A DNA stretch of 36,933 nt from Bipalium vagum (Eukaryota). A program made the position numbers and the translations under genes. Shown one piece after another: positions 18,140-22,830 of this stretch. Position 1 is the first letter of the stretch. Every line of letters begins with the position of its first letter. Location: positions 1-36,933 of the forward strand of contig JBBMKC010184296.1 of assembly GCA_037834085.1 (NCBI GenBank). The letters run 5' to 3'. A model generated the notes under the pieces. It saw only the letters and a list, made by a program, of their open reading frames with translations, searched no databases and was not told the origin of the DNA.

Positions 18140-18868
18140 AAAGTTCTTTCTTTTGCAGATTTTTTTGAAAACTTTAGAGAAGTATGTTATGATTATTATG
18201 AAATAGATCCATGTTATTGTTATAGTGCACCTGGATTATCGTTGAATGGAGGATTAAAATATTCTCAAGTTAAATAAAAATATTTTAAACCAGAAACATT
18301 TAATCATTTGTTATTAATAGAAAAATGAATAAAAGAGGAATTTCATCAGTACATGGTAATAGACGAGTAAAATTAAATAATAAAATAGTTAATCATAAAT
18401 TTAATACTTGTTATGAACCTTTACCATATGAATGGAATAATGTTTTAAATGATTTTAACAAGAAAAACTTTGACTTCAGCTATTACTTTAAAGGAAGATG
18501 TCTAAAATATTATGATTCATGTTCATTTTATTCTACCTGTATGACAATGCCTTTACATACGGTTGAAATGTATGAAGATAAAAATGCAAATTATGAAAGA
18601 ACATCATCTGATAAAGTATGTAAACACCGATGTAAATGATTATAACAATACTTTAGATGAAAGTATAATAAATAAAGTAAATCATGGTATAAAATAAGAT
18701 AAACATAAAATCATTTTATATTCACAAAAGATAGCTTTATTACCATTCGATGATTAAAGAATAATTGATGGAATAACAACCTCTCCCCATGGACATCAAA
18801 TTAAATGTGATAAATGTAATGAATGGATATATAAATTAGATGAAATTAATAAACATCATCTATGTTAA
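18140..18868 (+). pseudogene. Protein-primed family B DNA polymerase (Polinton type), truncated and internally deleted
   Basis: ADFFENFREVCYDYYEIDPCYCYSAPGLS..GLK, RGISSV, LKYYDSCSFYSTCMTMPL (motif A-like) and the C-terminal KIALLPFDD*RIIDGITTSPHGH. No YxDTDS seen. Confidence 0.88.
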
Positions 18869-18898
18869 ATTTATTATACATAAATAATATTTTTAAAA

Positions 18899-19051
18899 AT
18901 GAGTGAAATAGATAAAAAATATTTCGACTTAAACAAATTCTTGTATTTAAAAAGTTTATATCCTGAATTACAAAATATAACAATAAATTCCTTACAAGAT
19001 ATTTATGATTATTTAGAAATCGTATATTATATTTTCCCTTGCGAAGATTAA
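18899..19051 (+). CDS. Small 50-aa ORF of the Polinton-like element, unknown function
   Basis: MSEIDKKYFDLNKFLYLKSLYPELQNITINSLQDIYDYLEIVYYIFPCED*, starting 30 nt after the PolB stop with AAAAATG context. Confidence 0.4.
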   Translation: MSEIDKKYFDLNKFLYLKSLYPELQNITINSLQDIYDYLEIVYYIFPCED

Positions 19052-19176
19052 AAATTTAATTTTATATTATATTTTTTTAATAAATCATACATTGAATATA
19101 ATGAATGGAGTGAATTATACAAAAAAAATTTAATTTAATAACTATATCACATAAAAGTATTTTTTTAGTTTTACAA

Positions 19177-19805
19177 ATGAAGAATCAGAACTTCAATATC
19201 AATAAAAGGGAAGCTTTAAATAACAAATTCACTTTTCAATTATAAACAAAGGAATGTTAGAAATTTTTTCAAATAAAAGCAAGTACAGATTTTTATTCAA
19301 AAAGAAATAATTGTAAATGTTGTCATCAAACCTATATTAAAAATTATAGAAATATTTCAGAAAATAAAATAAAATATGATTATCATAGAAATAGAATACA
19401 AGAGAATCCAATGTTTAAATTTGAACACAATTTATATACTATCTTAAATAGAGTTTTTAAAGAACACAGAGAATCAAAACATTCAAAAGAAGTATTTGGA
19501 TGTAGTTTTGATTTTTTACATGAATGGATTGAATTTCAATTTTAAGATGGAATGACTTGGGAAATTCATGGAAAATACTGGCATATAGATCATGTTTTAC
19601 CAATTTCAAAAATTAATTTAAATAATAAAAACATTTAAAATTTTGTTATAATTGGAAAATTTTAAGATCTTTAACTGTTCAAAAGAATTTATCAAAAAGT
19701 AATAAAGTAGATTATTGGCAATATATATTTCAAGAAATTAAAGCAAAATATTTTATAAAGGATTATGATAAAGAAATGATAAACTTTAATAATTTTTTAA
19801 AGTAA
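19177..19805 (+). pseudogene. HNH/endonuclease VII-like nuclease of giant-virus/phage type
   Basis: CKCC, then GCSFDFLHEWIEFQF*DGMTWEIHGKYWHIDHVLPISK..NW..LRSL..KNLSKSNK (WHIDH at 19579); stops and frameshifts present. Confidence 0.82.
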
Positions 19806-20874
19806 GTAATTCATTTTCATTATCTTTCAAAAATATTAGTAATAATAAAGCTATAATTTCATGGTGTGAATAAAATAACAGTTTTAAAAACGAAAAACTT
19901 TTTGAGTGAAATAAAAGAATAAATAAAGAAATTAGATTAGAATAATTTAGTATAGTAATTTTTTATATTAAAAATATTCTTTTATAAAATAAATAATTTT
20001 CTGCAAAATTTAAATAAAATAAAACAACATATAATTTCAACTTCAAATGATGAAAGTTTAATTAATTCTGTTAATTATTGATAATAAAACAATAATAAAA
20101 ATATCAAAGATAAAGATGTTGAAGAATATTTAAAAACACATTTAATAATGTAATGAATAATGTGGAAATATCTAAAAGAATGTTACACATTGATCCAAGT
20201 CTTGTAGGATATATAAAAGTTGTAGAAATACTTAAAGAATATTTACTCAATCAAAATCATTTAATAAATAATACTCTTTTTAATAAAATAAATATTGGTA
20301 TCATTTATCTCAAACAATTTAATAAAATAAAAACTTATTTATATAATGAGAATATACATATTAGTAAAGCAGGTTTCTATTTTTAATACCATTTTATAAA
20401 CTAGCTTATAAATACCCAAGATTTAAATTAATATATATTTCAAACAATTTTTGTCACAAAAATTTTGATATAATTAAAAAAGTTATTGCAAAAGATGTTG
20501 AATTTTGAAAATCTTCTGACGTTGCTTATATAGTCTCTACCAATCCTCGAAGAGGCACCTACGATGACTATATATATCTTCCAATGAAGATGAAGCTCGG
20601 TCTTTAAATAACCATGACTTTGATTAGAGAAATAAATTCAAATTAATTAAAAATTACCTAACAGTGTAAGACTTTAATGTAATAATTGTATATTTTGAAA
20701 TTAAATAAATTTATATTTTTACTTCTTATTTTCTAAATGGAAGAAAATGAGTATATAAAATATTTGTAAGATTATATTCATTAACTAACTATTATGATTT
20801 TTAATGAATAATTATTTTAAACTTTCTTTTACTAGCTTTAATTTAAGCTTTATTTTAGAGATTTTTTCTAACTT

Positions 20875-22025
20875 TTATTTCAATATTAAACATTTTCCAC
20901 CTAGTATTTTTATTTCCATAAATTTTTCTTTTAACAAAACGACATTGATTTTACCTTTAAAATCTGAATCTTTTAAAATATTTAAAGTAACAAATGCACC
21001 ATTAATACATGACGTTTCCGGTTGATCTTTTAAATCAAAACAAAATATAGAATATAGATTTTGAAATTCTAAAAAATTTAATTGAAGATCATTATTAAAG
21101 TATTTATATAATTAGAATAAGTTCTATTATTTTTCCTTTTTCATATTTTATAGGATTTAAAGGATAGTATGAACTATTAACTTGAACTTCTAAAATTTTT
21201 ATTTTATTTTGAATAAACAAAATATTATTTTTATTAAAATTAAATTCTGATTCTCTAAAACTATAAATATATGAATTGGTTTATTTGGTACATTATATAA
21301 TTGTAATGTTTGTGTAGTTCCTTCTGTTAAATTTCTTTCATCACAATTTCTAGATAAAAAAATTAGATTTATAGATTTTCCATCATATATTCTTACCAAA
21401 AGATTTAATTCAGTAGATGGATTTAATTGTAATTCTGGAATAAATAGTTTTAAATCTTTTAATTTCTCATATCCATTTGTTCCATAATATATTTCTTTAT
21501 CAATATCAATTTTTCTTGTAAATGTTAATTCTCCTTGCATGTTATAAATTACTCTCTTACAAAATTGTAAAAATCAAAACATTAATTTTAATGGAAATTC
21601 ACCAGAACTTGTTAATTTATAAATTTCTCTAATTTTAAATCCTTTATTATCTTTAGCTGGATTATCTTTAATTTTACCTGGTATCCAACAAATATTTGTT
21701 ATTGAATTTGATGAAATAACATTTTCAATTGATTTTATTTCAGTTGAACCTAATTTTAAAGTAGTATTAGAAAATAAATATGAAAAGAAGTTATTTTGTA
21801 AGTTTATATTTTCATTAGCTTTTATATCCTGAATTTCAATTTCAAAAACTAAAATTGGTTCTGATAAATCTAAAGCATTCACTGATTGTAATAAAGAAAA
21901 GTTAGATTTCCATTAGTACTTAAATTTGTTGCAGTTGCTGGATTTAAAGAAATTTCTAAATAGTCACATTTTTTAGTTGATAGGTCTTGGTGATAATAAT
22001 TATTATCTAGATTTAATTTAAACAT
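20875..22025 (-). pseudogene. Polinton/adintovirus major capsid protein (double jelly-roll), frameshifted
   Basis: About 380 aa across frames: LQNNFFSYLFS..LKLGSTEIKSIE, FPLKLMF.FLQFCKRVIYNMQGELTFTR, LFIPELQLNP, VQVNSSYYP, FQNLYSIFCFDLKDQPE. Lies directly downstream of the packaging ATPase. Confidence 0.8.
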
Positions 22026-22059
22026 TTTAATAGAAAAATTTTAAAAAATAAAAATGTTT

Positions 22060-22830
22060 TTATTCAAATGCCGAGTGTTTTACACTTTCTTCTTCTAAAT
22101 TAATAAAATAATAATTATATTTTTCTCTCATAATCAAGTTCATCTTTTTCCATAAAACTTGCTAACATTTTAGAATATTTTTATATCTCTATCTTATTTT
22201 GAAATCATAAATAAAATTTAAACATTTTCATTATTTCTTATACTTCTTAGGGCTAAATCAAAAAATGATTGAGATAAATATTTTACTGAACATTTATTAT
22301 GCCTTCTTCTTGTAAAATACATTTCCAATATATGTTTAATTTTTTCAATTATTACATCATTAAAAACAATCAATTTTTTCTTATTTTTTTCTAATTTATC
22401 TGGAGCTTGAATCTCATTTGCTTTATCAGATAAAGTTACATTTATAAAACGTTGTCTCCAAGGGGCTTTATATTCAAAAAGCTCGCTTTCAAGACCTTCA
22501 GTCACTTTCTCATCAAATTTATATTTAGTTTCATTTTTAAACAATTGACAAACTTCTTCTTTTGATAAACCATAATCAAAACAATCTTTTTATATTTTAA
22601 AGCTGGTTGAAGAAAAGCAGTTTTAGAAAAAATAATTAAATTGTTGTAATCCATATTATCTTTTTTAATAACATACTAGTATTATATAATAACATTGTTT
22701 TACCAGATCCAGAATGACCAAGTTTCAAATCCTAAAAGACTTGCTAATAAATTTTAAGTTGGAGATATTACTTCGCATCTTTTTGATAATTTCATAATAG
22801 AATTTGAAGAAATTGGATTAGGATTAATTT
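22060..22830 (-). pseudogene. A32/FtsK-like DNA packaging ATPase
   Basis: Walker A GHSGSGKT (22719-22696), Walker B-like LIVFND, and YFTRRRHNKCSVKYLSQSFFDL..SIRNN (GRH..SQ..IR.N signature). Confidence 0.9.

What the first reader, a model, noticed from the sequence alone, without database searches (positions are those of the whole stretch)
18140..22830. Endogenous Polinton/adintovirus-like virus fossil with replication and virion modules
Seen: pPolB, small ORFs and HNH on + converge on capsid and packaging ATPase on -; all recognisable genes are intronless and disrupted. Known: pPolB, A32 ATPase and double-jelly-roll capsid are Polinton/adintovirus core genes. Integrase and cysteine protease were not recognised, so it is either a truncated Maverick or an integrase-less relative. 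It records a probably undescribed dsDNA virus lineage of this host.
Basis: partly seen in the sequence, partly recalled or inferred. Interest (0 to 1): 0.7.

Follow-up and report, generated by a model that had tools for sequence, protein, structure and literature searches.

The report
Broken Maverick virus fossil, abundant family
This is a dead piece, cut at both ends, of a Maverick/Polinton virus-like element, one of likely well over a thousand decayed copies in what is likely an animal genome, so the locus itself is ordinary; its sister copies carry the integrase fused to a phospholipase-like domain, which would be a way to pack the integrase into virus particles.

Summary
It is a truncated Maverick, not an integrase-less relative: sister copies 80-87% identical in DNA carry an rve integrase and a protease-like gene, and related copies have AGTAGT-starting inverted ends, one with a 6-bp target duplication. 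This copy lost both ends and about 0.9 kb of the polymerase and decays neutrally (pN/pS 0.98). The load is high: 1,646 capsid and 2,223 integrase search candidates, 3.8% of a systematic 81-kb sample (bootstrap 0.6-8.6%). Side result: the family's integrase is fused in frame to a PLA2-like domain; in many metagenomic Mavericks the same two genes overlap, mostly in the -1 frame, at an A run with no integrase start codon, suggesting recoding. I did not find this in print. The scan noted decayed Polintons in other genomes before. New member of a known kind; interest 0.38.

The parts
18137..18618 (+). pPolB remnant, middle part (end of exonuclease region to polymerase motif A); 5' half of the gene and left end of the element missing; one frame change near 18330, stops
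   Evidence: tblastn of natural open frames of other copies, 64-73% (E 1e-26 to 1e-37) and 49%/31% to a PF03175-positive frame; DNA matches to sister copies start at 18135-18172
18618..18868 (+). pPolB C-terminal remnant, joined to the middle part by a deletion of about 0.9 kb private to this copy
   Evidence: sister L065 has about 885 nt between the two matching blocks; L078 has a different deletion
18899..19051 (+). 50-codon ORF of unknown function, open; recurs in other copies
   Evidence: no Pfam hit above cut-off
19177..19763 (+). HNH / endonuclease VII-like gene, broken by stops and a frame change
   Evidence: phrog_1035 E 7.9e-9; 32% to a second HNH type in L053
20019..20600 (+). Broken ORF of unknown function, present in only some copies (about 1 kb block 19828-20861 absent from L002, L017-L022 and L026 where matched)
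   Evidence: 56% to an ORF of L015; DNA matches; ends approximate
20866..22025 (-). Double-jelly-roll major capsid protein gene, four pieces, three frame changes, at least two stops
   Evidence: PF21738 E 4.8e-9; model pLDDT 83.8, top Foldseek hits D13, PBCV-1 Vp54, iridovirus and PRD1 capsids; pieces
22182..22740 (-). A32/FtsK-type packaging ATPase, Walker A kept, start lost by deletion, frame changes and stops
22712..22855 (-). Middle piece of the likely minor capsid (penton) gene, joined by deletion to the ATPase; right end of the recognisable element
   Evidence: 56%, E 7e-11 to L006 ORF; homologues lie beside the ATPase in metagenomic Mavericks; penton identity is inferred from position and size, no profile hit
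22895..23529 (.). Unrelated interspersed repeat, 5'-truncated, abutting the cut end of the element; not a Maverick TIR
   Evidence: 1,536 candidates, 82-94%; Maverick marker beside it in 1 of 15 copies

Best explanation
The locus is a dead internal fragment of a Maverick/Polinton (adintovirus-type) element that has lost both ends and decays by neutral mutation, one copy of a very large family in this likely animal genome. Shown: the broken genes; sister copies with rve integrase, PLA2-like domain fused in frame to it, protease-like and penton-like genes; inverted ends starting AGTAGT; one 6-bp target duplication; even spread of private changes over codon positions. Inferred from what is known of Mavericks: the parent copied itself with the protein-primed polymerase from its inverted ends, was inserted by the integrase, and could likely pack itself in a double-jelly-roll capsid with the A32 ATPase. 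After an old burst of insertion (copies differ by a median 19% in the capsid gene) deletions removed the left end with half of the polymerase, 0.9 kb inside it, the penton-ATPase junction and everything beyond the penton, including integrase, protease and the right end.
For: Gene identities. Integrase in close sisters: L011 (81%), L018 (82%), L016 (81%), L035 (83%), L075 (86%). Ends: 18 of 19 TIR hits begin exactly with AGTAGT against unrelated flanks, though the search query began 17 nt inside the repeat; TIR-to-TIR copy L057 has GTGGAC on both sides; the (AGT)2 end and 6-bp duplication are Maverick hallmarks (PMC8097293, passages). Decay: copy-private changes 141/128/137 at codon positions 1/2/3, 76 synonymous, 330 non-synonymous, 28 stops, pN/pS 0.98 over 22 copies. 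One clade: 16 of 16 kept genomic capsid pieces group together, SH-aLRT 99, quick tree. Load.
Against: No TIR or target duplication at this locus, so its own integration by the integrase is not shown. The TIR was found on copies 81% (L040) from the window capsid, and no copy with the window's exact gene order was seen end to end. Only 1 of 3 end-to-end pieces shows a clean 6-bp duplication (L040 and the 150-bp L069 piece match at 3 of 6). 18 of 23 related contigs hold no integrase (many are short or cut). The protease is supported only indirectly (blank; 45% to an ORF that hits Peptidase_C5 at E 5.7e-4). The singleton filter biases pN/pS upward. Candidate counts are not copy numbers.
Confidence: 0.9

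Rival explanations
1. An integrase-less Polinton-like or MELD virus captured passively by the host.
For: No integrase or protease in the window; integrase-less meldviruses are reported (PMC11071296, passages).
Against: Close sisters carry the integrase; integrase candidates (2,223) outnumber capsid ones (1,646) with equal-length queries; the window copy ends in the middle of genes on both sides.
Confidence: 0.03
2. A non-autonomous, internally deleted derivative that was itself amplified after its deletions.
For: TIR-to-TIR copies lacking the polymerase (L040, 5.1 kb) or the capsid (L057, 7.45 kb) exist; polymerase candidates are fewer (799; 160 for another type); polB-less mobile polintons are reported (10.1101/2025.02.07.637071, passages).
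Against: The window's polymerase deletion is not shared by the five copies aligned across it; the copy has no ends; the lower polymerase count is confounded by greater divergence (best hits 60-69% against 78-86%).
Confidence: 0.05
3. A host-domesticated viral gene cluster, or an assembly chimera with a free virus.
For: None direct; short all-Maverick contigs with long open frames exist (L080-L082).
Against: Every core gene is broken and decay is neutral; the piece lies between intron-containing host genes and other repeats on a 36.9-kb contig.
Confidence: 0.02

Closest known systems
Spodoptera frugiperda Mavericks 1 and 2 and other insect Mavericks (PMC5803895; passages and section 12)
   Same: pPolB with B2 domain plus endonuclease VII insertion, A32-like ATPase, rve integrase, adenain-like protease, parvovirus-type PLA2 domain.
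   Different: There PLA2 is a separate ORF and the integrase has a chromodomain; here PLA2 is fused in frame to the integrase and no chromodomain was hit. No sequence comparison with these elements was possible.
Alpha adintoviruses with PLA2X (PMC8502044; sections 3.1 and 3.2, passages, one supplementary file searched)
   Same: PF03175-positive PolB, FtsK ATPase, hexon, penton, adenain, rve integrase, ITRs, PLA2 accessory domain; degraded copies in animal germlines.
   Different: PLA2X is described as its own gene; OTU domain on PolB not tested here; Alpha or Beta class not tested by tree; a free-standing HNH gene is not mentioned in that text (0 hits for 'HNH').
Vertebrate Mavericks (PMC8097293; passages)
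   Same: (AGT)2...(ACT)2 ends, 6-bp duplication, intronless genes, most copies (96%) degraded.
   Different: Copy numbers there average 22 with a maximum of 287; here over a thousand fragments are likely (criteria differ). Gene order here varies between subfamilies.
Trichomonas and other protist Maverick-Polinton expansions (PMC10120064; passages)
   Same: Thousands of capsid genes per genome are known.
   Different: Those are protists, up to 27-54% of the genome; this is a likely animal host with a few percent, and no uninterrupted full-length capsid frame was seen among 130 matches.

Membership tests
Maverick/Polinton (adintovirus) | [quoted passage not shown] | tested here: met
   Window pieces match an open frame of another copy that hits PF03175
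Maverick/Polinton (adintovirus) | Retrovirus-like rve integrase | tested here: met
   Absent from the truncated window copy but present in sisters 81-86% identical; met for the family, not the locus
Maverick/Polinton (adintovirus) | Double-jelly-roll major capsid protein | tested here: met
   PF21738; window piece model hits DJR capsids; full-length outside homologue P0001 Z 27.4, rmsd 3.4, 355 aligned to PBCV-1 capsid
Maverick/Polinton (adintovirus) | A32/FtsK packaging ATPase | tested here: met
Maverick/Polinton (adintovirus) | Single-jelly-roll minor capsid protein | tested here: inconclusive
   Candidate ORF beside the ATPase here and in metagenomic Mavericks; no profile hit, not folded
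Maverick/Polinton (adintovirus) | Adenain-like cysteine protease | tested here: inconclusive
   Fragments in sisters; direct searches blank; indirect link to Peptidase_C5 E 5.7e-4, below cut-off
Maverick/Polinton (adintovirus) | Terminal inverted repeats with (AGT)2 or (AG)3 ends | tested here: met
   Met in related copies; the window copy has none
Maverick/Polinton (adintovirus) | 6-bp target site duplication | tested here: inconclusive
   1 of 3 end-to-end pieces clean
Alpha adintovirus / Polinton group 2 | PolB of the PF03175 class and capsid clustering with named Alpha members | tested here: inconclusive
   PF03175 hit is modest (E 6.8e-8), PLA2 present; no named reference sequences on hand for a tree
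Alpha adintovirus / Polinton group 2 | N-terminal OTU domain on PolB | not tested
   The window lacks this part; not searched for in other copies beyond Pfam scans of partial frames
Integrase-less Polinton-like / MELD virus | No rve integrase in the element | tested here: not met

The most novel reading that the evidence does not exclude
Mavericks of this type make their integrase as a Gag-Pol-like fusion with the PLA2X virion entry protein: by an in-frame fusion in this genome's lineage and its nearest metagenomic relatives, and by programmed slippage on an A run (mostly into the -1 frame) in many aquatic relatives. The integrase would then ride in the virion, as expected of a true integrating virus, and this host carries one of the heaviest Maverick loads known for an animal.
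Probability: 0.35. Interest if true: 0.68.

Novelty: new member of a known kind. Interest (0 to 1): 0.38.

Why it matters
The locus alone adds little: decayed Mavericks are common in animal genomes. Two family-level points could matter. First, a load of a few percent of the assembly with well over a thousand fragments is far above the vertebrate maximum of 287 copies and bears on the open question, raised in PMC8097293, of what drives such amplifications. Second, whether Mavericks form virions that carry their integrase is open; a PLA2X-integrase fusion, in frame here and apparently recoded in relatives, gives a short, directly testable junction.

Tried and rejected
Right flank 22895-23529 as a TIR: rejected, it is a separate repeat. 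Shared polymerase deletion with L078: rejected on alignment. Polymerase under-representation as proof of non-autonomous spread: not upheld, confounded by divergence. Relatives with context by capsid or integrase protein: nothing in viral or metagenome contigs or phages; alignment queries were unusable; a degenerate integrase motif then gave 33 loci. Names or taxa for the nearest capsids: none; the ESM Atlas gave no answer. Sequencing runs: one coded DNA holder, no RNA holder listed; no reads were laid. pPolB against PDB sequences: no real hit. Stimulatory RNA structure after the A run: none, z -1.3 to 1.0. A canonical slippery heptamer was found in only 9 of 17 split loci. piggyBac-like reading of 17200-17820 from a cysteine pattern (recalled): no Pfam support. 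Kapitonov and Jurka 2006 was not held. The careful tree did not finish; the quick tree is quoted, and 9 of 24 genomic pieces were dropped by length or identity filters. No complex prediction was run.
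Full report
1. Observation. The capsid gene (22025-20866, minus) is in four pieces; its longest single-frame piece hits PF21738 at E 4.8e-9. That piece, read with X at its stop and aligned with 43 relatives, models at pLDDT 83.8, and its best structural matches are vaccinia D13, PBCV-1 Vp54, iridovirus and PRD1 capsids in the PDB and NCLDV-type capsids in BFVD, at modest TM-scores of 0.3-0.6 because it is partial and ends out of frame. A natural full-length homologue, P0001 (53% to a sister copy), models at pLDDT 92.4 and aligns over 355 residues to the PBCV-1 capsid at Z 27.4, rmsd 3.4. 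The ATPase, polymerase and HNH pieces were confirmed through open frames of other copies and PHROGs. No integrase, PLA2-like or protease-like match lies anywhere in the window, and no TIR (3 pattern matches against 1.1 expected, the nearest 2.8 kb away and pointing outward).

2. The family. The window is one contig of a 441-Mb assembly in 272,664 contigs. The capsid-ATPase DNA gave 3,969 first-look candidates, the 40 scored being 67-90% identical. With 99-residue queries the candidates were 2,223 for integrase, 1,646 for capsid and 799 for polymerase. These are not copy numbers; in the one search scored almost to its end, 150 of 160 candidates gave 123 matches. In a systematic sample of 60 contigs (81,436 nt, three cut at 10 kb) Maverick coding remnants covered 3,122 nt in 5 contigs, 3.8%, bootstrap 0.6-8.6%; this counts all Maverick families that my markers reach. 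Of 130 capsid matches none showed an uninterrupted full-length frame. Marker maps of fetched copies show polymerase, HNH, capsid, ATPase, penton-like, four unknown ORFs, protease-like, integrase and PLA2-like genes, in orders that differ between subfamilies. Among distinct contigs with at least 500 nt at 78% or more to the window element, 5 of 23 hold an integrase (28 rows, 5 of them duplicates; loci were chosen by my searches, not at random). An inverted repeat around L040 led to 19 TIR hits, 18 starting exactly with AGTAGT. L057 has a clean 6-bp duplication; L040 and L069 do not. PMC8097293 (passages) gives (AGT)2 ends, 6-bp duplications and intronless genes as Maverick features and finds 96% of vertebrate copies degraded.

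3. History of this copy. DNA matches to sisters begin at 18135-18172 and end by 22874. About 0.9 kb is missing at 18620, not shared by five copies aligned there. A second deletion joins the penton middle to the ATPase Walker A. The right end abuts a 5'-truncated copy of an unrelated repeat. Over 22 capsid copies the median pairwise distance is 0.194 (231 pairs); private changes fall 141/128/137 on codon positions, pN/pS 0.98, window copy 0 synonymous and 13 non-synonymous. The filter drops recurrent, mostly synonymous changes, so the ratio is biased up, but the even positions and 28 stops indicate neutral decay. In a quick tree, 16 of 16 kept genomic pieces form one group (SH-aLRT 99) next to P0001 and P0002 (9 of 24 pieces dropped). 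The wider search found 667 relatives at E 0.001 or better, the best 150 listed; ten looked up carry no useful name. The host is likely an animal (intron-containing CYP3A-like gene); its taxon was not determined.

4. Mechanism. Shown: gene content, ends, decay, abundance. Inferred from established Maverick biology (PMC6431247, PMC8502044, passages and sections): replication by the protein-primed polymerase from the inverted ends, insertion by the rve integrase, likely packaging in a double-jelly-roll capsid, and PLA2-aided entry as proposed in PMC4642659 (passage). This copy can do none of these.

5. The integrase fusion. In the family the PLA2-like domain and the integrase lie in one frame (L061: PF08398 E 4.5e-6 and PF00665 E 5e-11). 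Of 37 integrase hits, 31 have PLA2 upstream, 25 in the same frame, 21 with no stop between; stops in the others fall at scattered places. Twenty of these loci were picked for long integrase frames, so the share is inflated, but the linker varies in multiples of three and has no shared stop. A motif scan of public contigs gave 33 loci. Three show the same fusion, so it is not unique to this genome. In 17 loci with separate ORFs the integrase is at -1 in 13, +1 in 2 and in frame in 2, and 14 lack a Met before the N-terminal motif. A second analysis located 18 junctions: 11 at -1, 5 at +1, 2 in frame; all 16 shifted ones carry a run of 6-12 A, the in-frame ones do not, background 11 of 197. Against this reading: nine loci are one cluster, leaving about five independent -1 lineages and three +1; a canonical heptamer is present in only 9 of 17; no downstream structure was found; the A run may only encode the basic tail of PLA2X; L182 and L183 have a usable Met; homopolymer errors and decay were not excluded with reads; one fused copy here (L061) also has six A. 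In the papers read, PLA2 is a separate gene (PMC8502044 section 3.2; PMC5803895 passages); PMC11071296 (passages) proposes -1 frameshifts only for the penton. Searches and finds 117-119, 133 and 134 showed no report of the fusion or the junction. The library lacks most subscription papers, Repbase reports and most supplements (one file of PMC8502044 was searched, cut when stored), where genome maps could show it.

6. Comparison. The gene set matches insect Mavericks and Alpha adintoviruses. Mavericks are near universal in invertebrates: 20,702 integrase-linked pPolB1 in 960 genomes and 17 of 23 invertebrate phyla (10.1101/2023.08.22.554363, abstract and sections 5 and 8). Load: 0.3% in Sitophilus (PMC8576890, passages), at most 287 copies in vertebrates, thousands in protists (PMC10120064, passages); criteria differ from mine. 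Polymerase-less mobile polintons are known. PMC11296320 and PMC3671162 (passages) added nothing on promoters or fusions. Earlier scan notes report a decayed Polinton and a Maverick-ended satellite in other genomes, unchecked here; none exists for this genome or sequence.

7. Verdict. Observation confirmed; interpretation partly supported. The locus is an ordinary fossil of a new but expected Maverick family (confidence 0.9). Interest 0.38, raised by the heavy load and the PLA2-integrase lead; that lead has probability about 0.35 and would merit about 0.68.

Noticed in passing
L181-L213 (public viral and metagenome contigs): PLA2X lies directly before the integrase. Of 17 loci with separate ORFs the integrase is in the -1 frame in 13 and lacks a Met before its N-terminal motif in 14. 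All 16 out-of-frame junctions located (11 at -1, 5 at +1) have a run of 6-12 A, against 11 of 197 background windows; the two in-frame ones do not. Nine of the loci are one 80% cluster.
   Followed up: partly
L190, L206, L210, L188, L185: In-frame PLA2-integrase fusions in three metagenomic contigs, one more broken by a single stop beside a capsid 43% identical to P0001, and a protease-like region fused to an integrase.
   Followed up: partly
L069:6530-6679: 150-bp mini element bounded by AGTAGT and ACTACT, a MITE-like derivative of Maverick ends.
   Followed up: partly
L040:2023-7145 and L057:1751-9202: End-to-end copies lacking the polymerase or the capsid; in L040 both TIRs run up to the start codon of the first gene.
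   Followed up: partly
L080, L081, L082: Short contigs with long open polymerase and ATPase frames, about 70-77% to the window: younger Maverick families may be collapsed in this assembly.
   Followed up: no
window 18879-18901, 19157-19179, 22045-22023: Gene starts share a T-rich run followed by AAATG; not compared with host genes.
   Followed up: no
window 22895-23529 and 23995-24077: Abundant non-coding interspersed repeat (1,536 candidates), with an 83-bp duplication around a TG-rich simple repeat and the N block.
   Followed up: partly
window 2639-11931 (+): Intron-containing cytochrome P450 gene, best PDB hits CYP3A, the main sign of an animal host.
   Followed up: partly
window 28542-29420 and 33601-34398 (+): Tandem pair of double zf-met zinc-finger ORFs, 70-77% alike in DNA, only unnamed homologues.
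   Followed up: partly
window 16092-17027: About 0.9-kb element with long inverted arms, MITE-like.
   Followed up: no
window 36123-36557: Mariner-type transposase remnant; similar decayed pieces elsewhere in the window.
   Followed up: no
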